Positions 1,693-61,863 of a DNA stretch of 64,000 nucleotides are shown one piece after another. The stretch is from Escherichia coli. Lineage in GTDB: Bacteria; Pseudomonadota; Gammaproteobacteria; Enterobacterales; Enterobacteriaceae. The notes below the pieces were generated by a model. That model was given only the letters and a program-made list of their open reading frames with translations. It did no database searches and had not been told where the DNA came from. Position 1 is the first letter of the stretch. Each line of letters begins with the position of its first letter. Where the stretch lies: NCBI RefSeq assembly GCF_048403405.1, contig NZ_CP183129.1, one strand, 5' to 3'. A program made the translations under genes and the position numbers.

Positions 1693-1696
1693 TATT

Positions 1697-1720
1697 TAAC
1701 GCCGGTTTTAACCGGCGTTA
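1697..1720. terminator. perfect palindrome taacgccggtttt/aaccggcgtta between convergent lplT and tas; likely bidirectional terminator
   Basis: Inverted repeat read directly from the sequence, lying between two convergent stop codons. Confidence 0.5.
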
Positions 1721-1723
1721 ATC

Positions 1724-21900: not shown

Positions 21901-23726
21901 TGAAATTGCAAAAGCAATTACTGGAAGCTGTGGAGCACAAACAGCTACGCCCGCTGGACGTGCAGTTTGCCCTGACCGTGGCGGGAGATGAACATCCTGC
22001 CGTCACCCTCGCGGCAGCCCTGTTAAGCCACGACGCCGGGGAAGGGCATGTCTGTTTACCGCTCTCACGACTGGAAAATAACGAGGCGTCGCATCCGCTG
22101 TTGGCGACCTGTGTCAGTGAAATCGGTGAGTTACAAAATTGGGAAGAATGCTTGCTGGCTTCACAAGCGGTAAGCCGGGGAGATGAACCAACGCCGATGA
22201 TCCTCTGTGGCGATCGTCTTTATTTGAATCGCATGTGGTGTAACGAGCGCACAGTGGCACGCTTTTTCAACGAAGTGAATCATGCCATTGAGGTTGATGA
22301 AGCTCTACTGGCGCAAACCCTGGACAAACTTTTTCCAGTAAGCGATGAAATTAACTGGCAAAAAGTTGCGGCGGCAGTGGCGCTGACGCGGCGGATTTCG
22401 GTGATTTCCGGCGGTCCTGGCACCGGTAAAACGACCACCGTAGCGAAGTTGCTGGCAGCCTTAATTCAAATGGCCGACGGAGAACGCTGCCGTATCCGTC
22501 TGGCTGCACCAACGGGTAAAGCTGCCGCGCGCTTAACCGAATCTCTCGGCAAGGCTTTGCGACAGTTACCGCTGACCGATGAACAAAAGAAACGCATTCC
22601 GGAAGATGCCAGTACTTTGCACCGATTGCTGGGTGCGCAGCCGGGTAGCCAGCGTTTACGTCATCATGCCGGTAACCCGCTGCATCTTGATGTGCTGGTG
22701 GTAGATGAAGCGTCAATGATCGATCTGCCTATGATGTCGAGACTGATCGACGCCTTGCCCGATCATGCGCGAGTGATCTTTCTCGGCGATCGTGATCAAC
22801 TGGCCTCGGTTGAGGCTGGGGCTGTGCTGGGCGATATCTGCGCTTATGCCAACGCGGGCTTTACCGCCGAGCGTGCCGGGCAGTTGAGCCGCCTGACGGG
22901 AACTCACGTTCCGGCAGGAACTGGCACAGAAGCGGCATCTTTGCGCGACAGTCTCTGCCTGCTGCAAAAAAGCTATCGTTTCGGCAGTGATTCTGGCATT
23001 GGTCAGTTAGCTGCGGCGATCAACCGTGGTGATAAAACGGCAGTGAAAACCGTTTTTCAGCAGGATTTTTCTGATATCGAAAAACGGCTTTTACAGAGCG
23101 GCGAAGATTATATTGCGATGCTTGAGGAAGCTCTTGCGGGTTACGGACGTTATCTGGATCTGCTGCAAGCGCGTGCCGAGCCGGATTTAATCATTCAGGC
23201 GTTCAATGAGTACCAGCTTTTGTGCGCCCTGCGGGAAGGGCCGTTTGGCGTGGCTGGACTGAATGAGCGAATTGAGCAGTTTATGCAACAGAAGCGCAAA
23301 ATTCATCGTAATCCGCACTCTCGTTGGTACGAAGGCCGACCGGTGATGATTGCCCGTAATGACAGCGCGCTTGGGTTGTTTAATGGCGATATCGGTATCG
23401 CTCTGGATCGCGGACAGGGGACGCGCGTTTGGTTTGCGATGCCGGACGGCAATATTAAGTCTGTGCAACCGAGTCGCCTGCCAGAGCACGAAACTACGTG
23501 GGCGATGACGGTACATAAATCGCAGGGATCGGAGTTCGACCATGCGGCGTTGATTTTACCGAGCCAACGCACGCCGGTAGTAACACGAGAGCTGGTTTAC
23601 ACCGCGGTGACCCGCGCGCGTCGCCGTCTGTCGCTGTATGCCGATGAGCGCATATTAAGTGCGGCAATCGCCACTCGTACTGAGCGGCGCAGTGGTCTGG
23701 CGGCGTTGTTTAGTTCACGGGAATAA
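21900..23726 (+). CDS. recD: exodeoxyribonuclease V alpha subunit
   Basis: 608-aa ORF with Walker A (GGPGTGKTT); start overlaps the recB stop by 1 nt. Confidence 0.95.
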
Positions 23727-23734
23727 ACGTAATT

Positions 23735-23776
23735 GCCGGATGCGACGCACGAGTGTTACGCATGTCGCATCCGACG
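23735..23776. repeat. REP-like palindromic unit between convergent recD and argA
   Basis: gccggatgcgacg...cgcatgtcgcatccgacg inverted repeat read directly. Confidence 0.5.
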
Positions 23777-23787
23777 ATTTTCATCGC

Positions 23788-26777: not shown

Positions 26778-26850
26778 CTTGTAACTGTTAAATCAGGCAA
26801 GGCAATGTTTGAAGTAATTATTACTTCTGACGTGCCTTGCCTTTTTTTTT
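26778..26850 (+). promoter_or_regulatory. RAT (ribonucleic antiterminator) element overlapping an intrinsic terminator in the leader of the antiterminator gene
   Basis: ttgtaactgttaaatcaggcaagg resembles the sac/bgl/lic RAT consensus; its 3' half (aggcaaggca, 26795-26804) pairs perfectly with tgccttgcct (26833-26842), which is followed by T8. Confidence 0.7.
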
Positions 26851-26861
26851 GGAGTCATGGA

Positions 26862-27686
26862 ATGATCATCGAAAAAGTCATGAACAATAATTGTGTACAG
26901 GCATCGATGAATGGACAGGAGGTTATCATTTCTGGACCTGGCGTCGGTTACAACAAAAAATATGGAATGTCGGTCCCTGAGCATCCGGCTAACCGGATTT
27001 TTTATGTCAGAAATGAACAAAAAAACAAACTCTATAAATTGATTGAACATGTAGATATTGAGTATGTGTTTGTTGCCGAAAAAATAGTGCAATATGCGGA
27101 GAAAAATCTCGAAAAAAATCTCAATCCATCGCTACTATTGATTCTTGCGGATCACATTTCGAATGCAATATCCCGAGTCGCTTCAGGTATACAAATTAAT
27201 AATGTTTTCCTTGATGAAATCAAAGCGTTGTACAAAGCAGAATATGCAATAAGCCGGGATGCATTAACCATCATCAATGAGCAATTTAGCTTTCAACTTC
27301 CGGATGATGAGATTGGTTTTATTGCATTGCATATTTTAAATAACTATGAAAATTCATCTGATTATGAATCGGTACGGATTATTGAATTATCTCAAAAAAT
27401 CACGGAGATTATCGAGGGTATTTATAACCGAAAGGTGGACAGAAGTTCATTTAACTATTCAAGATTTATGATGCACCTTAAGTATTTTTCTAATCGAGTT
27501 TTATGTAATGAAAAGATAAAACAGAAAGATATTGGTGACATCTATGAGCAGTTTCTTGAGAAAGACATCCTGTTACAGCGCGCAATTCATGAAATTGAAA
27601 GGTATCTGTATGCCACTTTTAAATATGAATTAATTTTAGAAGAAAAACTATATCTCTCAATTCGTACCAAAGTATTAATGGACTAA
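26862..27686 (+). CDS. BglG/LicT/SacY-family transcription antiterminator (CAT RNA-binding domain + two PRDs)
   Basis: ATG at 26862 preceded by ggag; N-terminus MIIEKVMNNNCV... aligns to LicT/BglG (MKIAKILNNNVV); the ORF-track start 26805 lies inside the leader terminator. Confidence 0.85.
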   Translation: MIIEKVMNNNCVQASMNGQEVIISGPGVGYNKKYGMSVPEHPANRIFYVRNEQKNKLYKLIEHVDIEYVFVAEKIVQYAEKNLEKNLNPSLLLILADHISNAISRVASGIQINNVFLDEIKALYKAEYAISRDALTIINEQFSFQLPDDEIGFIALHILNNYENSSDYESVRIIELSQKITEIIEGIYNRKVDRSSFNYSRFMMHLKYFSNRVLCNEKIKQKDIGDIYEQFLEKDILLQRAIHEIERYLYATFKYELILEEKLYLSIRTKVLMD

Positions 27687-27717
27687 TTATATATAACATT
27701 TATATGAGATAACCCAC

Positions 27718-29298
27718 ATGAAACAAAAGAAAGCCTGGAGTTTTTTTCAGAGCCTGGGGAAGGCATTTATGTATCCCATTGCTCTGCTAAGTGTATGTGG
27801 CATGATGCTAGGGCTAGGAAGTGGTTTAGCCAGTGATGATATGGCAAAGTTAATTCCATTTCTGGCTATTCCAATAATTAAAACCATACTTGATTTCATT
27901 GTTAGCCTTGGTTTGTTTGCCTTTGTTAATTTACCTGTATTGTTTGCGATAGCAATTCCCTTAGGATTATTAAAAGAGAAAGAGGATAAAGCCTATGGCG
28001 CTTTTTCTGGCTTAATTGGTTTTATGGCGATGCATCTGGGAACGAACTTTTATCTTAAACAGCACGACTTATTGGTCGCTGCTGACCAAATGTCGACACA
28101 TGGGCAAACCATCATTCTGGGGATCCAGTCCTACAATACCAGCGTGTTAGGGGGAATTGTTGCTGGGTTATTAGTCGCCAGCATGTATAAAAAGATCGTT
28201 AATTTACGCATTCCAGAATCATTAGGTTTTTATAGCGGCCCACGTCTGGTGCCTATCATTACACTGATTGTGATGAGTGGATTTGGTCTGATCATTCCTT
28301 TTATCTGGCCGCCGTTTTTCAATCTCTTCATGCTCATTGGCCACTGGATATCAACTTCCGGTCCTGTTGGTTATTTCTTCTATGCAGTTGCCGAACGTGT
28401 GACGATTCCTTTTGGCTTAAACCATCTGGTGACGTCAGTGTTCCGCTTTACGCCAATCGGCGGTTCGGCTGTGATTGGCGGCGAAGAGTATTACGGCACC
28501 CTGAACATGTTTATGGCGTACGTCAAAGAGAATGCGGTCATTCCGCTGGATTTGGCGGGGAAAATGGAGCAGGGCAAACTGATGATTCAGTACGGTCTGG
28601 CTGGTGCTGCACTGGCCATGTATCGCACTGCTCATGCTCAAAACAGAAAGGCTATCAAAGCATTGCTTATTTCCGGTGTGCTTACGGTTATTATTGGTGG
28701 CGTCAGCGAACCGATTGAATTTCTGTTCTTATTTGTCAGTCCGCTGCTGTTTGTCTTCCATGCCTTTATGAATGGATTCGCCAACATGGTCTTGCCATAT
28801 ATGGGCGTGAAGATGGGATTTACTGGCGATCTGATTCAATTTATTAGCTTTGGCGTATTGCGTGGCACAAGAACAGGTTGGCCGATCGCGGTGTGTGTCG
28901 AAGTGGCCTATTTCTTCATTTATTACTTTGTGTTCCGTTGGACCATTCTCAAATTTAACCTGATGACCGTAGGACGTGAAGAGTCCAGTCCTGTCACGCT
29001 GAACGCTCACGAAGAAACTGCAATAGCTAATATCCCAGCTTATGATAAATCAGAGTTGCAGGCAGCGGAGCAAATGGTTAAGGCTCTGGGTGGAAAAGAA
29101 AATATTAAATCACTGGATAATTGTGTCACTCGTTTGCGTTTAACTATCGCAGATATGGGATTGATAGATGAGGCTGCAATTAAAAGTGCCGGAGGGATTG
29201 CGGTTGTGAAACTTGATCAAAATACCTTACAAGTCATTATCGGCACTAAAGTCATCGCCCTGCGTCGGGATATGGATAACTACATGGGGATACGCTGA
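27718..29298 (+). CDS. PTS permease EIICB, glucose/maltose (MalX/PtsG-like) family; no EIIA domain
   Basis: 526-aa polytopic ORF; C-terminal EIIB domain with phospho-cysteine motif NCVTRLRL. Confidence 0.85.
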   Translation: MKQKKAWSFFQSLGKAFMYPIALLSVCGMMLGLGSGLASDDMAKLIPFLAIPIIKTILDFIVSLGLFAFVNLPVLFAIAIPLGLLKEKEDKAYGAFSGLIGFMAMHLGTNFYLKQHDLLVAADQMSTHGQTIILGIQSYNTSVLGGIVAGLLVASMYKKIVNLRIPESLGFYSGPRLVPIITLIVMSGFGLIIPFIWPPFFNLFMLIGHWISTSGPVGYFFYAVAERVTIPFGLNHLVTSVFRFTPIGGSAVIGGEEYYGTLNMFMAYVKENAVIPLDLAGKMEQGKLMIQYGLAGAALAMYRTAHAQNRKAIKALLISGVLTVIIGGVSEPIEFLFLFVSPLLFVFHAFMNGFANMVLPYMGVKMGFTGDLIQFISFGVLRGTRTGWPIAVCVEVAYFFIYYFVFRWTILKFNLMTVGREESSPVTLNAHEETAIANIPAYDKSELQAAEQMVKALGGKENIKSLDNCVTRLRLTIADMGLIDEAAIKSAGGIAVVKLDQNTLQVIIGTKVIALRRDMDNYMGIR

Positions 29299-30482
29299 TG
29301 AATGTTTTTAATACCCCTATCTCCCGTAAAGGAACATATTGCACTCAATGGGACTTTTGTGAGGACAGATTTGGTGTAAAAGATGTATTACCATTTTCTA
29401 TTTCAGATATGGATCTTCCGATACCGGAAGCTATCATCAGGGCATTAAAAAAACGCCTGGAACACCCGATTTTAGGGTACAGCCGTTGGCAGCATGATGA
29501 TTATCTGAATGCGATAGTCAATTGGTATCATCAACAATATAAAACTGAAATAAAACCAGAATGGATCACCTATAGCCCAAGTGTGATGTATTCAATTGCT
29601 AAGGCAATAGAGTTATTAACATTGAATGGAGATAACATTCTCATTTTTACGCCTGTTTATAACGCATTTTTTGATGTAATTAAACAAAGTGGTCGAAATA
29701 TGCTAACAACCTCTTTGAATAAAGAAAATGAGAGAGGCTACGCTATCAACTGGCAAGATTTTGAGCTAAAAATTAAAAGCGCGAAGATGGTGTTATTGTG
29801 TAATCCTCATAACCCGACAGGAACCGTCTGGTCGGAAGAAGATCTCTTCAAAATCGCTGCAAGCTGCGCAAAACAAAAAATCTGGCTATGTTCAGATGAA
29901 ATTCACAGTGATTTTGTTTTTAACCATGGTTTCACGTCCGCGTTAAAAATAAAAAATGACAAAGTAGTGGTGTTAAATTCGATTTCGAAAACATTTAATG
30001 TTCCTGCACTAACAGGATCATATATGATATCCGCTGACCAGGATTTTAATGATAAGTTTAGAACGATATCAAGATATCGCGATTTTGTAAACTCACCATC
30101 TATATTGAATGTGATTGCTACCATTGTTGCTTATAACGAATGTGAAGAATGGTTAAAGTCGTTAAAGGATCATATTGCCTCTAACATTCAATTTACCCAG
30201 CAGTATTTGAATGAAAATATTCCAGAATTGATCGTGAGGTCCGCTGAGGGTTGCTATTTTTCGTGGATAGATTGCTCGGCCATTGGCTATCCCTTTGATA
30301 AATTTTACCGACGATTAATTGATGAAGGGAAAGTGGGTATTATGGCGGGGTATGTTTATGGTACGGAAGGTGAGGGCTATCTGCGTCTGAATCTGGCCTG
30401 CGGTCGAGAAAAATTATATATGGGGCTTGTGCGCCTTGCGAGTGTAATTAAAAATATTAATCAGGAAAAAGAAAATGAATAA
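29298..30482 (+). CDS. MalY/PatB-like PLP-dependent C-S lyase (aminotransferase class I/II fold)
   Basis: 394 aa; N-terminus GTYCTQWDF...DVLPFSISDMD closely parallels MalY; PLP-lysine motif SISKTFN; start overlaps the PTS stop. Confidence 0.8.
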   Translation: MNVFNTPISRKGTYCTQWDFCEDRFGVKDVLPFSISDMDLPIPEAIIRALKKRLEHPILGYSRWQHDDYLNAIVNWYHQQYKTEIKPEWITYSPSVMYSIAKAIELLTLNGDNILIFTPVYNAFFDVIKQSGRNMLTTSLNKENERGYAINWQDFELKIKSAKMVLLCNPHNPTGTVWSEEDLFKIAASCAKQKIWLCSDEIHSDFVFNHGFTSALKIKNDKVVVLNSISKTFNVPALTGSYMISADQDFNDKFRTISRYRDFVNSPSILNVIATIVAYNECEEWLKSLKDHIASNIQFTQQYLNENIPELIVRSAEGCYFSWIDCSAIGYPFDKFYRRLIDEGKVGIMAGYVYGTEGEGYLRLNLACGREKLYMGLVRLASVIKNINQEKENE

Positions 30483-31071
30483 CTCGGAACTTATACATCT
30501 TATTAAACATTTTATGCGTAACGAACATAAGGCCGTTGAAGAGGTTATTGATTCCCCACTTTCTGAAGTCGCTAATTTAATTAAAGTATTACAATCTTGT
30601 CAGGGTAAAGTTGTTTTTATTGGTGTTGGTAAGTCCGGTATTATTGCCAGAAAACTCGCAGCAACATTTGCCAGTACCGGAACTCCCTCGTTTTTTGTTC
30701 ACGGTACGGAAGCGGTACACGGCGACCTTGGAATGGTGGCGAAAGACGATGTTGTTATTCTTATTTCAAACAGTGGTGAGACGGCGGAAATCCTGGCGAC
30801 ACTGCCTAGTCTGAAAAGAATGGGTAATTATTTGATCTCTTTTACCCGCAGTCATCACTCATCGCTTGCGATAAGTTGTGATTTATCTGTTGAAATCCCC
30901 GTCAAAAGTGAGGCGGATAATTTAGGTTTAGCACCGTCATGCTCGTCTACTGTTGTTCTGGTTGTTGGTGATGCGGTGGCGCTTGCACTCTCCGAATTGA
31001 AAAAATTTACTCGTGCCGATTTCGGCTTATATCATCCAGGAGGTGCACTCGGCATTAAAGCAAATTCATAA
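30475..31071 (+). CDS. SIS-domain-only sugar-phosphate isomerase-like protein (resembles the N-terminal half of KdsD/GutQ arabinose-5-phosphate isomerases, no CBS domains)
   Basis: 198 aa; motifs GVGKSGIIARKLAATFASTGTPSFFVHGTEAVHGDLGM, SNSGET and HPGGALG; start overlaps the MalY-like stop by 8 nt. Confidence 0.8.
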   Translation: MNNSELIHLIKHFMRNEHKAVEEVIDSPLSEVANLIKVLQSCQGKVVFIGVGKSGIIARKLAATFASTGTPSFFVHGTEAVHGDLGMVAKDDVVILISNSGETAEILATLPSLKRMGNYLISFTRSHHSSLAISCDLSVEIPVKSEADNLGLAPSCSSTVVLVVGDAVALALSELKKFTRADFGLYHPGGALGIKANS

Positions 31072-31142
31072 TTTCAAAATATAAATACAGTAACCGGTCA
31101 CGCCATCTTTTGGGGTGGCGTTCATTGAAGTGAGTGTCAGCT

Positions 31143-32090
31143 ATGAAAAATGTTCTGGTCACCGTCCCCAGCTTTTCAGCACGCTGTGTTTCCGCCAGCA
31201 AGTTGCTAAGAGAGAATAATTTTAATCTTATTATTAAGAATAATGTGGAGCATCTGCTTAAATCAGAATCCACTGCATTACGAGAATCTATTTGCGCGGT
31301 CATCGCCGGAAAAGATTGTTATCAGGCGGATACGCTATCATTGCTGCCTGGTGTGAAAATAATATCGAGATTCGGGACGGGGATAGACAATATTGATCTT
31401 CGTGCGGCACAGCAATCCGGTATTGTAGTCAAAAATGCGGTTGGGATTAATTCAAATGCGGTTGCGGAATTTATCATTGGACTTATCTTTGCGAGCATGA
31501 GAAATATTCCTGGCAGCTATCATGCGATGCAAAATGGCTACTGGGTTGAGTCGCATGGCTGTGAATTACAAGGGAAACGGATTGGCCTGGTTGGCTACGG
31601 TAATATAGGTAAAACCCTGGCGAAAAGGTTGTCTGGTTTTGATGTTGAGCTTTTAGCTTTTGACAAACAACCCGATTTTCAGGCCGCTGGCAAAGATGGA
31701 GTTCAGTTTGTATCAATTGAAGATATCTTTATGCAGTCGCATGTCATCATTGTTCTTTTACCTTTTTCTCCTGAGCTGGAGAACTTCATTAGTCATAAAT
31801 ATTTGTCAATGATGCGCAATGGTGCTCTGATCATCAATGCCGCAAGGGGAAAGTTGCTGGATGAGGGCGCTTTACTTCAGGTGATTGAAGAACGAAATGT
31901 GTTTGCGGCGCTGGATGTGTTTAGCTCTGAACCGTTGGCGCAATTTAGCCCACTGCTACATGCCAAAAATATCATTACAACGCCGCATATTGCGGCCGCC
32001 ACCGTTGAGTCATACCAGCAAACCGGGATACACGTTGCCCAGTCAATAATTGATTACTTCGCAGGAAGGGAGATAAAAAACGTGTTGTGA
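31143..32090 (+). CDS. D-isomer-specific 2-hydroxyacid dehydrogenase, NAD-binding
   Basis: ATG at 31143 preceded by gaagtgag (ORF-track 31134 is a GTG upstream); Rossmann motif GLVGYGNIGKTLAKRL. Confidence 0.8.
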   Translation: MKNVLVTVPSFSARCVSASKLLRENNFNLIIKNNVEHLLKSESTALRESICAVIAGKDCYQADTLSLLPGVKIISRFGTGIDNIDLRAAQQSGIVVKNAVGINSNAVAEFIIGLIFASMRNIPGSYHAMQNGYWVESHGCELQGKRIGLVGYGNIGKTLAKRLSGFDVELLAFDKQPDFQAAGKDGVQFVSIEDIFMQSHVIIVLLPFSPELENFISHKYLSMMRNGALIINAARGKLLDEGALLQVIEERNVFAALDVFSSEPLAQFSPLLHAKNIITTPHIAAATVESYQQTGIHVAQSIIDYFAGREIKNVL

Positions 32091-33772: not shown

Positions 33773-33847
33773 TGTGATATTCTGTATGCCGTTTTTACGG
33801 ATACGACAGGGTGAGGGATAACCTCGCCCTTTTTATTCTGAGGTGCT

Positions 33848-34654
33848 ATGTCTGTGGTAATTAGTGATGCATGGCGTCAGCGTTTTGGTGGCACAGCGCG
33901 TCTGTATGGTGAAAAAGCGTTGCAACTGTTTGCTGACGCGCATATTTGTGTGGTCGGTATTGGCGGTGTCGGTTCCTGGGCGGCGGAAGCGCTGGCGCGC
34001 ACAGGGATTGGCGCAATCACGCTTATCGATATGGATGATGTGTGCGTCACCAATACCAATCGGCAAATTCATGCCCTGCGCGATAACGTTGGGCTGGCAA
34101 AAGCGGAAGTTATGGCGGAGCGTATTCGCCAGATTAACCCGGAGTGCCGTGTAACGGTGGTGGATGATTTCGTGACGCCGGATAACGTAGCGCAGTATAT
34201 GAGCGTGGGTTATTCGTACGTGATTGATGCCATTGATAGTGTACGGCCCAAAGCGGCGCTGATTGCTTATTGTCGGCGCAATAAAATCCCACTGGTCACA
34301 ACCGGTGGCGCGGGTGGGCAGATTGACCCGACGCAGATTCAGGTTACCGATCTGGCGAAAACGATTCAGGACCCGCTGGCGGCGAAGTTGCGTGAGCGCC
34401 TGAAAAGCGATTTTGGCATAGTGAAAAACAGTAAAGGTAAGCTCGGCGTGGATTGCGTGTTCTCTACCGAAGCATTGGTGTACCCGCAGTCAGACGGTAC
34501 GGTGTGTGCTATGAAAGCCACGGCGGAAGGGCCGAAGCGGATGGATTGTGCATCTGGATTTGGCGCGGCGACGATGGTGACCGCCACCTTTGGTTTTGTT
34601 GCGGTTTCTCATGCGCTGAAGAAGATGATGGCGAAAGCGGCCCGTCAGGGGTAA
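33848..34654 (+). CDS. tcdA: ThiF/MoeB-family E1-like enzyme (tRNA threonylcarbamoyladenosine dehydratase)
   Basis: 268-aa ORF with dinucleotide-binding motif GIGGVGS; adjacent to csdE/csdA. Confidence 0.85.
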   Translation: MSVVISDAWRQRFGGTARLYGEKALQLFADAHICVVGIGGVGSWAAEALARTGIGAITLIDMDDVCVTNTNRQIHALRDNVGLAKAEVMAERIRQINPECRVTVVDDFVTPDNVAQYMSVGYSYVIDAIDSVRPKAALIAYCRRNKIPLVTTGGAGGQIDPTQIQVTDLAKTIQDPLAAKLRERLKSDFGIVKNSKGKLGVDCVFSTEALVYPQSDGTVCAMKATAEGPKRMDCASGFGAATMVTATFGFVAVSHALKKMMAKAARQG

Positions 34655-34661
34655 ACAATCA

Positions 34662-34696
34662 GGTCGGATGCGACGCGAACGTCTTATCCGACCTGG
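34662..34696. repeat. REP-like palindromic unit between convergent tcdA and csdE
   Basis: ggtcggatgcgacgcgaacgtcttatccgacc read directly. Confidence 0.5.
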
Positions 34697-34704
34697 TGCA
34701 GTGC

Positions 34705-35148
34705 TTAAACCTGCTTCGCCACAGCGATAATCGCCTCGCTTAACGCATTCAACCCCTGGCTGCGTGAGGCGCTAAGCTGCGCACGCAATCCCAGCTCATC
34801 AAACAATGCCAGCGGCGACTGTGCCTGCAATTCGGCGGCGGTTTTCCCCTCAACGGCAGTCAACAACACCGCCAGCAGGCCGCGCACAATGCGCCCTTCG
34901 CTGTCGCCAAAGAAGTGCATTTTACCGTTTTCAGCCACGGTATATCCCAGCCAGACGCGGTTTTCGCATCCGGCAATCTCTTTAGCCTGCGCTTTTAACT
35001 CGTCTGGCAAAGCCGGAAGCTGTTTCCCCAGCATGATCAACTGGCGATATTTATCTTCCCATTGCGTCAACGGTGCGAAGGTATTGCGTAACGTTTCTGC
35101 GGTTACGGTTGTGCCGAACGGATGTCCGGCGAATTGCGGGTTTGTCAT
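34705..35148 (-). CDS. csdE: SufE-like sulfur acceptor protein
   Basis: 147-aa ORF directly downstream of csdA with overlapping stop/start. Confidence 0.85.
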
Positions 35149-42222: not shown

Positions 42223-42330
42223 AATCGCTCCTGCAATATAGCCGGATAACATTGTTTATCCGGCTAACCACTCTTGCTTGTTCAGGCCCGGTAGCCGGAG
42301 CGACCGGGCATCACATCAGGGAGTAATGTA

Positions 42331-44138: not shown

Positions 44139-45455
44139 TCAGTTAGTTGCCGTTTGAGAACGGAAACGGGCAAAGATAAAGATGACTGCGAAGCAGAGTG
44201 CCGGGATCAGTTCGGCAGTGGGGATGTTGCCCGCTGCGTCACTGACAAAACCCATGACCGGAGTGACAATACCGCCGCCAATAATGGTCATAACGATGAA
44301 GGACGAACCGTATTTGGTGTCCTGGCCGAGATTCTTAATGCCCAGCGAGAAGATTGTTGGGTACTGAATCGACATAAAGGCACTGCATAATGTCAGGGCT
44401 ATTAAGCCCACATGACCGCCAGCGAAGGCTGAGATCAGGCACAGTGCCATAGCGATTAATGCGTAGGCTGCCAGGACTTTGTGTGGTGCGAAGCGACTGA
44501 TGAGCCAGGTACCGGTGAAACGACCAATAAAGAAGCACACCATGGTTCCGGTTAAATAGTTAGCGGCAAAGCCTGCGGTCATACCTGGAATTTCTTCTAC
44601 AGCGTAGCGAATCAAATAGCTCCAGCAGGCCGTTTGCGCGCCGACATAGCAGAATTGCGCTAATACCGCCCAGCGCCAGTGACGAATACGCGCCAGACGA
44701 GAAAGCGATGCGGAGAACGATCCTTGTTTGGCGTCACTGTGATTATCACTCTGCAATGCCGGGAATTTCGTCAGCATGATCAGCAGGGCGACCAGTAACA
44801 CGATAGCCACGATGATCATATAAGGTGTCTGTACCGATAATACCAGGCTGTGTTTATACGCACTCAATTGCTCTGGAGACATTTTATCGAGAACGTCTTG
44901 CGATTGATGTGGCACGTTAGACAAAATAAGACTTTGTCCAAAGACAACCGCGATAATTGCGCCAAACGAGTTAAATGTTTGCGCAAGATTTAAGCGGAAG
45001 TGACCACTGCTTTCCGGCCCTAATACCGTAACAAAAGGGTTTGCGGCAGTTTCCAGACAACCTAATCCGGCTGCAATAATAAATAGGCCAACTAAAAATA
45101 AGGTGTAGTTCATTATTTCTGCAGCGGGCCAGAATAATGCAGCGCCCAAGGCATATAAAAATAATCCGGTAATAATCCCTGCTTTATAACTGAGTTTTTT
45201 CATCAATATCCCAGCAGGGATTGGGATAATGAAATAACCAAAGTAAAAGGCCGATTGGATCAGGCCAGCCTGGAAATTTGTCAGCGTAAAAGCCTGCTGG
45301 AATTGAGGTAATAAAATGTCGTTAAGGTTATTGGCTACCGCCCAAAGAAAAAACAGTGAGCACAGCAGCGCGAATGGAATAATGTAACTTCTGCTTTGCC
45401 CTGCATCTTTATCTACCGCACGGTAACTCTGCGTTTGTATTGATGTGTTTCCCAT
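44139..45455 (-). CDS. fucP: L-fucose:H+ symporter (MFS)
   Basis: 438-aa polytopic ORF, first gene of the fucPIKUR transcript. Confidence 0.95.
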   Translation of the reverse strand: MGNTSIQTQSYRAVDKDAGQSRSYIIPFALLCSLFFLWAVANNLNDILLPQFQQAFTLTNFQAGLIQSAFYFGYFIIPIPAGILMKKLSYKAGIITGLFLYALGAALFWPAAEIMNYTLFLVGLFIIAAGLGCLETAANPFVTVLGPESSGHFRLNLAQTFNSFGAIIAVVFGQSLILSNVPHQSQDVLDKMSPEQLSAYKHSLVLSVQTPYMIIVAIVLLVALLIMLTKFPALQSDNHSDAKQGSFSASLSRLARIRHWRWAVLAQFCYVGAQTACWSYLIRYAVEEIPGMTAGFAANYLTGTMVCFFIGRFTGTWLISRFAPHKVLAAYALIAMALCLISAFAGGHVGLIALTLCSAFMSIQYPTIFSLGIKNLGQDTKYGSSFIVMTIIGGGIVTPVMGFVSDAAGNIPTAELIPALCFAVIFIFARFRSQTATN

Positions 45456-46676: not shown

Positions 46677-47825
46677 ATGGCTAACAGAATGATTCTGAAC
46701 GAAACGGCATGGTTTGGTCGGGGTGCTGTTGGGGCTTTAACCGATGAGGTGAAACGCCGTGGTTATCAGAAGGCGCTGATCGTCACCGATAAAACGCTGG
46801 TGCAATGCGGCGTGGTGGCGAAAGTGACCGATAAGATGGATGCTGCAGGGCTGGCATGGGCGATTTACGACGGCGTAGTGCCCAACCCAACAATTACTGT
46901 CGTCAAAGAAGGGCTCGGTGTATTCCAGAATAGCGGCGCGGATTACCTGATCGCTATTGGTGGTGGTTCTCCACAGGATACTTGTAAAGCGATTGGCATT
47001 ATCAGCAACAACCCGGAGTTTGCCGATGTGCGTAGCCTGGAAGGACTTTCCCCGACCAATAAACCCAGTGTACCGATTCTGGCAATCCCCACCACAGCAG
47101 GCACTGCGGCAGAAGTGACCATTAACTACGTGATCACTGACGAAGAAAAACGGCGCAAGTTTGTTTGCGTTGATCCGCATGATATCCCGCAGGTGGCGTT
47201 TATTGACGCTGACATGATGGATGGTATGCCTCCAGCGCTGAAAGCTGCGATGGGTGTCGATGCGCTCACTCATGCTATTGAGGGGTATATTACCCGTGGC
47301 GCGTGGGCGCTAACCGATGCACTGCACATTAAAGCGATTGAAATCATTGCTGGGGCGCTGCGAGGATCGGTTGCTGGTGATAAGGATGCCGGAGAAGAAA
47401 TGGCGCTCGGGCAGTATGTTGCGGGTATGGGCTTCTCGAATGTTGGGTTAGGGTTGGTGCATGGTATGGCGCATCCACTGGGCGCGTTTTATAACACTCC
47501 ACACGGTGTTGCGAACGCCATCCTGTTACCGCATGTCATGCGCTATAACGCTGACTTTACCGGTGAGAAGTACCGCGATATCGCGCGCGTTATGGGCGTG
47601 AAAGTGGAAGGTATGAGCCTGGAAGAGGCGCGTAATGCCGCTGTTGAAGCGGTGTTTGCTCTCAACCGTGATGTCGGTATTCCGCCACATTTGCGTGACG
47701 TTGGTGTACGCAAGGAAGACATTCCGGCACTGGCGCAGGCGGCGCTTGATGACGTTTGTACCGGTGGCAACCCGCGCGAAGCAACGCTTGAGGATATTGT
47801 AGAGCTTTACCATACCGCCTGGTAA
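46677..47825 (+). CDS. fucO: L-1,2-propanediol oxidoreductase (iron-containing alcohol dehydrogenase)
   Basis: Fe-ADH family ORF; start MANRMILNETAWFGRG (ORF-track 46674). Confidence 0.95.
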   Translation: MANRMILNETAWFGRGAVGALTDEVKRRGYQKALIVTDKTLVQCGVVAKVTDKMDAAGLAWAIYDGVVPNPTITVVKEGLGVFQNSGADYLIAIGGGSPQDTCKAIGIISNNPEFADVRSLEGLSPTNKPSVPILAIPTTAGTAAEVTINYVITDEEKRRKFVCVDPHDIPQVAFIDADMMDGMPPALKAAMGVDALTHAIEGYITRGAWALTDALHIKAIEIIAGALRGSVAGDKDAGEEMALGQYVAGMGFSNVGLGLVHGMAHPLGAFYNTPHGVANAILLPHVMRYNADFTGEKYRDIARVMGVKVEGMSLEEARNAAVEAVFALNRDVGIPPHLRDVGVRKEDIPALAQAALDDVCTGGNPREATLEDIVELYHTAW

Positions 47826-47842
47826 ATGCGCTGATGTGATAA

Positions 47843-47879
47843 TGCCGGATGCGACGCTAGCTGCGTCTTATCCGGCGTA
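47843..47879. repeat. REP-like palindromic unit downstream of fucO
   Basis: tgccggatgcgacgctagctgcgtcttatccggcgta read directly. Confidence 0.55.
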
Positions 47880-47929
47880 TAAGTTCATTAAATTCAATGT
47901 GTTGATAATCGTTTGCATCCGGCACGCCG

Positions 47930-50163
<2,234 letters not shown>

Positions 50164-61693: not shown

Positions 61694-61767
61694 GACAGAA
61701 AACCAAAACCGGCTTCATAAGAAGTCGGTTTGAGATTACTGACGAAGTGGTTTACGGGGCCGGTTTT

Positions 61768-61799
61768 CCCCCTCACCCTCTCCCCGGAGGGGCGAGGGG
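61768..61799. repeat. GC-rich imperfect inverted repeat (ccccctcaccctctcccc / ggaggggcgagggg) between convergent gudD and barA
   Basis: Read directly; could act as a bidirectional terminator or be a copy of a dispersed GC-rich intergenic repeat. Confidence 0.4.
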
Positions 61800-61863
61800 A
61801 CTGTCTGTGCTGCTCCCAGCATTGGCATTGGACGGAACCTATTTTGACTCGACAAGACGTCCA

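What the first reader, a model, noticed from the sequence alone, without database searches (positions are those of the whole stretch)
47843..47879. REP-like palindromic units at three convergent gene junctions
REP-type palindromes (core ggatgcgacg...cgtcttatccg) occur after fucO (47843-47879), between recD and argA (about 23735-23776) and between tcdA and csdE (about 34662-34696). These are typical E. coli extragenic palindromes that can act as mRNA stabilisers or terminators.
Basis: partly seen in the sequence, partly recalled or inferred. Interest (0 to 1): 0.2.

Follow-up and report, generated by a model that had tools for sequence, protein, structure and literature searches.

The report
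Ordinary E. coli REP palindromes, one collapsed
Two of the three flagged hairpins are genuine but decayed copies of the well-known E. coli REP repeat, and the third is a symmetric leftover of a REP pair, so this is an ordinary, already described feature of the E. coli chromosome.

Summary
The window is an E. coli chromosome segment (recD-argA ... fucO-xni). GC-rich palindromes sit at all three reported convergent junctions.

A covariance model built from 26 independent REPs scores:
- fucO-xni (47842-47881): 44.6 bits, E 5e-10
- tcdA-csdE (34663-34692): 38.8 bits, E 2e-8
- best background in the window: 12 bits

Both matches are on the minus strand. The fucO 41-mer hits at least 40 places per genome in about 5,400 E. 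coli genomes. Both copies keep the diagnostic AA/GC stem mismatch. Both have lost the 5' GTAG needed by the REP transposase, so they are probably immobile fossils.

The recD-argA unit fails the model (7.9 bits). Both of its arms are GGATGCGAC-type and the CTTATCC arm is missing. About 730 E. coli genomes carry 20 extra bases there that restore that arm. I read this unit as a collapsed REP pair (BIME).

The fucO-xni REP is part of a decayed BIME and is dimorphic: 1,596 of 5,425 genomes have the long form and K-12 has a 50-bp-shorter symmetric form. E. albertii has the canonical long form.

No U-tract terminators follow the two true REPs. Four of the six flanking stop codons lie within 15 nt of a hairpin.

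Verdict: already known, low interest.

The parts
47842..47881 (-). REP after fucO. The REP-sense strand is the minus strand: tATAC-GCCGGATAAGACGC-agcta-GCGTCGCATCCGGCAt. It has a long-Z-like inner stem with a Y-like G/C foot. GTAG has decayed to ATAC. The plus strand, which is the fucO transcript sense, reads as the inverted REP (iREP).
   Evidence: Model R1 gives 44.6 bits, E 4.7e-10. Nearest seeds are long-Z copies, 34 of 39 identical. The 41-mer hits at least 40 places per genome. RNA hairpin is -26.0 kcal/mol on plus and -22.6 on minus. It starts 16 nt after the fucO stop.
47882..47898 (.). AT-rich linker of the decayed BIME (aagttcattaaattcaat).
   Evidence: It is conserved in the long alleles of E. 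coli, E. albertii and Escherichia sp. MOD1-EC7003. It is absent from the short K-12 type allele.
47899..47924 (+). Probable remnant of the second, oppositely oriented REP of the BIME: GTGT-TGATAAT-CGTTTG-CATCCGGCA. It ends 5 nt before the xni stop codon.
   Evidence: One-mismatch regex hit at 47903-47921. It sits in the same position as the GTAG-bearing REP next to xni in Citrobacter species. It is not detected by model R1, so the assignment is weak.
34660..34695 (-). REP between tcdA and csdE. Minus strand reads ccag-GTCGGATAAGACG-ttcg-CGTCGCATCCGAC. It has Y-type geometry. GTAG has decayed to CCAG.
   Evidence: Model R1 gives 38.8 bits, E 1.9e-8 over 34663-34692. Pattern match. Nearest seeds are Y copies, 30 of 37 identical. 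Inverted repeat I15. Hairpin is -27.3 kcal/mol on plus and -24.3 on minus. The site is present in all 5,425 E. coli genomes that match. It lies 3 nt after the tcdA stop and 7-9 nt after the csdE stop.
23731..23779 (.). Symmetric REP-derived palindrome between recD and argA: aattGCCGGATGCGACG-cacgagtgttacgcat-GTCGCATCCGACgatt. Both arms are of the ATGCG/CGCAT type. It has no AA/GC mismatch, no CTTATCC arm and no GTAG.
   Evidence: It fails model R1 (7.9 bits, E 5.4). The left arm is the exact 14-mer of the fucO REP. Inverted repeat I9. Hairpin is -22.6 kcal/mol on plus and -26.9 on minus. Longer alleles in other strains restore a scorable REP at 22.4-31.0 bits. A weak T-run follows on the plus strand. 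It lies 4 nt after the recD stop and 12 nt after the argA stop.

Best explanation
These are members and derivatives of the E. coli REP/BIME family of repeated extragenic palindromes.

Shown:
- The tcdA-csdE and fucO-xni units are true REPs with the REP-sense strand on the minus strand.
- They keep the conserved arms and the two-base AA/GC stem mismatch.
- They have lost the 5' GTAG.

Inferred from published biochemistry: without GTAG they can no longer be bound or cut by the REP-associated transposase (RayT/TnpA_REP), so they are fixed fossils.

Shown by comparison: the fucO-xni REP is the left half of a decayed BIME (inverted REP, then linker, then REP remnant).

Inferred: the recD-argA unit, and also the short K-12-type allele at fucO-xni, are collapsed BIMEs. 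An internal deletion joined the outer 5' arm of one REP to the outer 3' arm of its inverted partner. Those two arms are exact complements, so the product is a symmetric hairpin without the mismatch.

Inferred, not tested: the units act as RNA hairpins at the 3' ends of the convergent transcripts. They would block 3'-to-5' exonucleases. Where they begin within 15 nt of a stop codon (tcdA, csdE, recD, argA, but not fucO at 16 nt), they could impede the terminating ribosome and lower expression.
For: Identity:
- Model R1 was built from 26 REPs taken from other K-12 regions and one other strain.
- It scores 44.6 and 38.8 bits at the two sites. Everything else in the 64 kb scores 12 bits or less. 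Seeds score 43.8-63.5 bits.
- The pattern is expected 0.00 times in shuffles.
- The 41-mer hits at least 40 places per genome, which is the reporting cap, in 5,378 records.
- The published consensus GTAGGacgGATAAGgCGttCACGcCGCATCcGGCA and its Z counterpart match (PMC2817692).

GTAG and mismatch requirement: PMC3333891 and PMC3479197.

Decay series at fucO-xni:
- MS20645 allele with intact GTAG: 53.2 bits
- long alleles: 45 bits
- short alleles: 30.0, 25.7 and 18.9 bits

Outgroups:
- E. albertii and E. coli E69 have the long form with intact CTAC.
- Citrobacter species have a truncated inverted REP, a linker and a GTAG REP at the same junction.

recD-argA: alignment A6 shows the window and K-12 lack the 20 nt TGTGGGTCTTATCATGCCTG that carries the CTTATC arm. 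Alleles that have it score 22.4-31.0 bits.

Structure and position: hairpin energies are. The 15-nt rule is cited through PMC12306157.
Against: - No expression, 3'-end or stability data are available, so every functional step is inference.
- The direction of the recD-argA indel is not polarised by an outgroup.
- The second REP at fucO-xni is called only from position and partial similarity, and the model does not detect it.
- The short fucO allele cannot be derived from the present long allele by one clean deletion (50 nt = 47 + 3, plus substitutions).
- The short allele also occurs in E. whittamii, so both alleles are old or have been exchanged by recombination.
- Whether this strain carries rayT is unknown. 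Only 3,575 of 5,426 genomes do.
Confidence: 0.85

Rival explanations
1. The hairpins are gene-specific bidirectional intrinsic terminators that resemble REPs only by chance or convergence.
For: All three lie between convergent genes and fold stably on both strands. The recD-argA unit is followed by ATTTTCAT on the plus strand and is flagged as terminator-like. It also fails the REP model.
Against: The two canonical sites have no T-run on either strand. They match a REP model at E below 1e-7 and belong to a repeat with at least 40 copies per genome. The recD-argA left arm is the exact 14-mer of the fucO REP, and other strains carry a scorable REP there. Acting as a terminator and being REP-derived are not mutually exclusive for the recD-argA unit.
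Confidence: 0.1
2. They are currently mobile REP or REPIN-like elements that RayT still moves, and the strain differences are recent transposition events.
For: There is presence/absence and length polymorphism at fucO-xni (1,596 long versus about 3,800 short), at recD-argA, at mltA-tcdA and at gudD-barA.
Against: Neither window REP has GTAG, and each GTAG base is required for binding and cleavage in vitro. The tcdA-csdE copy is at the same place in all 5,425 genomes. Both fucO alleles occur in other Escherichia species, so the polymorphism is old. One third of E. coli genomes lack rayT.
Confidence: 0.05
3. The symmetric forms (the recD-argA unit and the short fucO allele) are ancestral. The longer REP or BIME forms arose later, by insertion or by gene conversion from other REP copies.
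For: The short recD-argA form is the majority, with about 4,650 genomes at 95% identity or more. The short fucO form is also the majority and occurs in E. whittamii. Gene conversion among REPs has long been proposed (Higgins 1988 review title, cited).
Against: E. albertii, E. coli E69, a cryptic-clade Escherichia and all 11 Citrobacter loci read carry two-REP or long forms at fucO-xni. The 20 nt missing at recD-argA are exactly the arm that makes a canonical asymmetric REP. That is simpler to lose than to gain precisely.
Confidence: 0.2

Closest known systems
E. coli REP / palindromic units (Y, Z1, Z2 types)
   Same: The arm sequences are the same (GGATAAGRCG ... CGYCGCATCC), as are the two-base AA/GC stem mismatch, the 30-40 nt size, the extragenic position and the high copy number. 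The tcdA-csdE copy has Y geometry. The fucO copy has the long-Z inner stem-loop.
   Different: Both copies lack the 5' GTAG, whereas 22 of 26 reference copies have it. The fucO copy is a Y/Z hybrid with G/C where Z types have T/A. The recD-argA unit lacks the mismatch and one arm type entirely.
BIME (bacterial interspersed mosaic element: two inverted REPs plus a linker)
   Same: At fucO-xni there is an inverted REP, then a linker of about 17 nt, then a REP-like remnant in the opposite orientation. Citrobacter and E. albertii have clearer versions at the same junction. K-12 has a textbook BIME 900 bp from the tcdA-csdE REP, between mltA and tcdA.
   Different: The second REP is too decayed to score. 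There is no tandem repetition. The linker was not compared with the published L/S/l/r/s linker motifs, because those figures are not held.
REPINs of Pseudomonas (REP doublets mobilised by RAYTs)
   Same: They share the concept of two inverted REPs forming a larger hairpin, with singlets and odd forms seen as decay products.
   Different: REPINs belong to a different sequence family and host. No evidence of mobility was found here.
Rho-independent terminators
   Same: Both are GC-rich hairpins just after a stop codon, and these ones sit between convergent genes.
   Different: The two true REPs have no U-tract. Their sequence is shared with dozens of unrelated loci.

Membership tests
E. coli REP | Match to the REP sequence-plus-structure consensus at a defined threshold | tested here: met
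   This result is for the fucO and tcdA-csdE sites. Model R1 gives 44.6 bits (E 4.7e-10) and 38.8 bits (E 1.9e-8). The window background is 12 bits or less and the seeds score 43.8-63.5.
E. coli REP | Match to the REP consensus (recD-argA unit) | tested here: not met
   7.9 bits, E 5.4. The pattern with the CTTATCC arm is absent.
E. coli REP | Imperfect palindrome with the two-base AA versus GC mismatch in the stem | tested here: met
   The mismatch is present at 34663-34692 and 47842-47881 (alignments, folds). It is not met by the recD-argA unit, where both arms are ATGCG/CGCAT.
E. coli REP | Conserved 5' GTAG tetranucleotide at the foot of the hairpin | tested here: not met
   The tetranucleotide reads CCAG at tcdA-csdE and ATAC at fucO-xni. 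GTAG is intact at the fucO site in strain MS20645, E. albertii and E. coli E69. This points to decay of a true member rather than non-membership. Four of the 26 reference copies also lack GTAG.
E. coli REP | High copy number, dispersed in the genome | tested here: met
   The fucO 41-mer has a median of 40 places per genome, which is the cap, reached in 5,378 records. Matches were found in 5,425 of 5,426 genomes.
E. coli REP | Extragenic location | tested here: met
   All three units lie wholly between stop codons of convergent genes.
E. coli REP | Recognised and cut by RayT/TnpA_REP | not testable with these tools
   Published work requires both GTAG and the mismatch, so non-recognition is predicted. 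rayT is present in 3,575 of 5,426 E. coli genomes. Its status in this strain is unknown.
BIME | [quoted passage not shown] | tested here: inconclusive
   At fucO-xni the first REP is clear. The second, at 47899-47924, is only a partial match that the model does not detect. Positional homologues in Citrobacter are clear BIMEs.
Rho-independent terminator | GC-rich hairpin followed directly by a U-tract | tested here: not met
   There are no terminator-like sites at 34550-34800 or 47750-48000. The recD-argA site gives only a sub-hairpin plus ATTTTCAT, at a rate not above the shuffles (1 found versus 0.5 expected).

The most novel reading that the evidence does not exclude
Symmetric, mismatch-free palindromes such as the recD-argA unit and the K-12 fucO-xni allele may form a recurrent decay class of REP pairs. 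In this reading a BIME collapses by deletion between the directly repeated half-arms of its two inverted REPs. The outer arms are exact complements, so the product is a tighter hairpin. It is invisible to RayT and is then kept for long periods, across Escherichia species, as a shared 3'-end structure lying within ribosome reach of both convergent stop codons.
Probability: 0.35. Interest if true: 0.25.

Novelty: already known. Interest (0 to 1): 0.1.

Why it matters
It matters little beyond correct annotation. REPs and BIMEs have been known for forty years and their strain-to-strain polymorphism is documented.

The useful points are practical:
- A REP consensus model separates true copies from look-alike palindromes.
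- GTAG loss marks fossil copies.
- Symmetric REP-like hairpins at convergent junctions can be read as collapsed REP pairs.

Four of the six flanking stop codons lie within 15 nt of a hairpin. That makes tcdA, csdE, recD and argA candidates for the reported REP-dependent translational damping.

Tried and rejected
- **Rfam.** The gathering-threshold scan found only CsrB, GcvB and three tRNAs. None of the 4,227 Rfam families reached threshold at the three sites.
- **K-12 annotation.** The RefSeq copy held here carries no REP repeat features even around rayT, so the lack of annotation says nothing.
- **Papers not held.** Gilson 1991, Bachellier 1997 and Liang 2015 are not available. Y/Z naming therefore rests on Nunvar 2010 and Ton-Hoang 2012, and the 15-nt rule is cited second-hand from PMC12306157.
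- **RepRanger supplements.** They contain no gene list.
- **Other CGGATGCGRCG matches.** Those at 22087, 38245 and 60906 lie in coding sequence and have no palindrome partner, so I treat them as chance.
- **First regex.** It missed short-Z copies because of a minimum-loop setting and was corrected.
- **A simple 50-bp deletion.** I considered a deletion between the two ATCCGGC repeats, or a 77-bp insertion with a TGATAAT target duplication, to explain the fucO dimorphism. Neither reproduces the short allele exactly.
- **Outgroups for recD-argA.** I ran no further search on this. The single genome-contig scan went to the fucO 3' end.

Full report
**Context.** The window is an E. coli chromosome segment in the reverse orientation of K-12. 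It runs through recC-ptrA-recB-recD, argA, amiC, mltA, tcdA, csdEA, gcvA, the fuc operons, xni, sdaBC and on to gudD and barA. A 2-kb probe around fucO matches 5,425 of 5,426 complete E. coli genomes, at 100% in several clinical isolates and at 95-99% in most others. Gene names come from the annotated matches.

**The observation.** All three reported places hold a GC-rich palindrome between the stop codons of convergent genes.

CGYCTTATCCG) occurs exactly twice, at 34666-34690 and 47847-47874. None is expected in 100 dinucleotide shuffles.
- The recD-argA unit differs. It reads GCCGGATGCGACG, then 16-17 nt, then GTCGCATCCGAC. Both arms are of the same ATGCG/CGCAT type and the CTTATCC arm is missing.
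- Other matches to the half-site, at 22087, 38245 and 60906, lie inside genes and have no partner arm.
- All three units fold stably as RNA on either strand: -22.6 to -27.3 kcal/mol, z from -3.0 to -6.5.

**Testing REP membership at a defined threshold.** Rfam has no matching family at these sites, and the K-12 record held here carries no REP annotation. I therefore collected 26 REPs from four other K-12 regions, including the rayT locus, and from one other strain. The sites under test were excluded.

- I aligned the 26 copies and built a covariance model with the published hairpin, keeping the two-base mismatch unpaired.
- Scanning the whole window with filters off gives 44.6 bits (E 4.7e-10) at 47842-47881 and 38.8 bits (E 1.9e-8) at 34663-34692. 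Both are on the minus strand.
- The next best score is 12 bits. The recD-argA unit scores 7.9 bits, E 5.4.
- The seeds score 43.8-63.5 bits, and the antisense of a true REP scores only 10-13 bits. The model is therefore strand-specific and the threshold is clean.
- The fucO 41-mer finds at least 40 places per genome, which is the reporting cap, in 5,378 records. This is the expected high-copy behaviour.
- The sequences agree with the published consensus (PMC2817692).

**Type and orientation.** In the convention of Ton-Hoang et al., REP means the GTAG-GGATAAG...CGCATCC strand. Both true REPs have that strand on the minus strand. The fucO and tcdA transcripts therefore carry the inverted form, whose G-U pair makes the hairpin about 3 kcal/mol more stable.

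- The tcdA-csdE copy is closest to Y-type copies, with 30 of 37 positions identical.
- The fucO copy is closest to the long-Z type, with 34 of 39 identical, but it has the Y-type G/C pair at the foot.

**GTAG loss.** Neither copy has the 5' GTAG. They read CCAG and ATAC. Published biochemistry shows that each base of GTAG, and also the stem mismatch, is needed for binding and cleavage by the REP-associated transposase (PMC3333891; PMC3479197). I infer that both copies are immobile fossils.

- This is decay and not non-membership. At the fucO site, strain MS20645, E. coli E69 and E. albertii all have an intact CTAC/GTAG, and the MS20645 copy scores 53.2 bits.
- rayT itself is present in only 3,575 of 5,426 genomes, in line with the reported losses in the B1 and B2 clades.

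**The fucO-xni spacer is more than one REP.** Downstream of the REP come a 17-nt AT-rich linker and then GTGT-TGATAAT-CGTTTG-CATCCGGCA (47899-47924). This resembles a REP in the opposite orientation and ends 5 nt before the xni stop.

- Citrobacter species have a truncated inverted REP, a linker and a clear GTAG-bearing REP in exactly this position. I read the window's spacer as a decayed BIME. The second half is a weak call, because the model does not detect it.
- The locus is dimorphic. 1,596 of 5,425 genomes have the 104-bp form. The rest, including K-12 and O157:H7, have a form 50 bp shorter.
- The short form is a nearly symmetric palindrome, GCCGGAT(G/A)CGACG-TTTG-CGGCGTATCCGGC. It scores 30.0, 25.7 or 18.9 bits, in the last case about equally on both strands.
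- E. whittamii has a short, fully symmetric version, GCCGGATGCG...CGCATCCGGC. E. albertii has the canonical long version. Both alleles therefore predate E. coli or have moved by recombination.

**The recD-argA unit.** About 730 genomes, the 80-90% identity band, have a spacer 20 bp longer.

- In strain 1428 the extra TGTGGGTCTTATCATGCCTG supplies the missing CTTATC arm. The locus then scores 22.4 bits as a REP on the minus strand.
- A rarer allele in JNE112863 scores 31.0 bits. It also contains a duplicated segment with a canonical GTAG-bearing Y REP at 54.9 bits.
- The left arm in the window is the same exact 14-mer as at fucO.

**The collapse model.** I conclude that the recD-argA unit is REP-derived but is no longer a REP. 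The simplest model covers both it and the short fucO allele. In an inverted pair of REPs the two outermost arms, GCCGGATGCGRCG and CGYCGCATCCGGC, are exact complements. The 5' arms of the two REPs are near-identical direct repeats. An internal deletion therefore leaves a symmetric hairpin without the mismatch.

- The direction of the recD-argA indel is not rooted by an outgroup, so this remains inference.
- A similar symmetric unit of the other flavour (ATAAG/CTTAT) lies next to the malE-malF REPs of K-12.

**Function.**

- The two true REPs have no T-run on either strand and are not terminator-like.
- The recD-argA unit has a weak ATTTTCAT tail on the plus strand.
- Hairpin starts lie 3 nt after the tcdA stop, 7-9 nt after csdE, 4 nt after recD, 12 nt after argA, 16 nt after fucO and about 50 nt after xni.
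- By established knowledge, REP hairpins protect upstream mRNA from 3' exonucleases. According to Liang et al. [quoted passage not shown]
- These roles are plausible for four of the six flanking genes but were not tested here.

**Verdict.** The REP label is right for two sites and only approximately right for the third. Nothing here departs from the known biology of REP and BIME elements and their polymorphism. Novelty: already known. Interest: low.

Noticed in passing
window 33773-33847 versus L002 25844-26081 (K-12): K-12 has a textbook BIME between mltA and tcdA: an inverted Y REP, a 34-nt linker and a short-Z REP, both with CTAC/GTAG. The window lacks it. In K-12 the insert is bracketed by a direct repeat of about 20 bp (GGGTGAGGGRTAACCTC) that is present once in the window.
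   Followed up: partly
window 61735-61812 (gudD-barA spacer): A GC-rich palindrome (ccccctcaccctctccccggaggggcgagggg) belongs to another dispersed repeat with a median of 10 places per E. coli genome. Only 189 genomes have it in full at this site. Strain 50579417 has a Z-like plus Y BIME there instead. The family name was not established.
   Followed up: partly
window 42241-42264 (fucI-fucK spacer, inside the operon): A perfect 9-bp-stem palindrome, GCCGGATAA-cattgt-TTATCCGGC, has both arms of the REP ATAAG/CTTAT type. It is the best sub-threshold hit of the REP model (12 bits, E 0.41, both strands) and is also present in K-12. It may be another symmetrised REP relic or an operon-internal processing hairpin.
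   Followed up: partly
window 26805-32090: A five-gene island between amiC and the three tRNA-Met genes is absent from K-12. It encodes a BglG-type antiterminator (PRD/CAT_RBD), a PTS EIIC-EIIB, a class I/II aminotransferase, a SIS-domain protein and a D-2-hydroxyacid dehydrogenase.
   Followed up: partly
L001 12663-18870 (strain 50579417) versus window 44139-45455: In strain 50579417 fucP is replaced by an ABC sugar transporter, an FGGY kinase and a LacI-family regulator. The window keeps fucP as K-12 does. The window is therefore not that strain, despite 100% identity around fucO.
   Followed up: no
L012 60-340 (E. coli JNE112863, recD-argA spacer): This is a rare 237-bp allele. The palindromic unit plus the last ~35 nt of argA are duplicated, with a canonical GTAG-bearing Y REP (54.9 bits) between the two copies. 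It looks like a REP-associated duplication.
   Followed up: partly
E. coli genome collection (rayT query L003 22637-23134): rayT is detectable in only 3,575 of 5,426 complete E. coli genomes at megablast sensitivity. REP-like sequence, by contrast, is found in 5,425.
   Followed up: no
window 1696-1721: A perfect 12-bp-arm palindrome, TTAACGCCGGTT/AACCGGCGTTAA, lies at another convergent junction (ORFs ending at 1692 and 1724). It is not REP-like according to the model.
   Followed up: no
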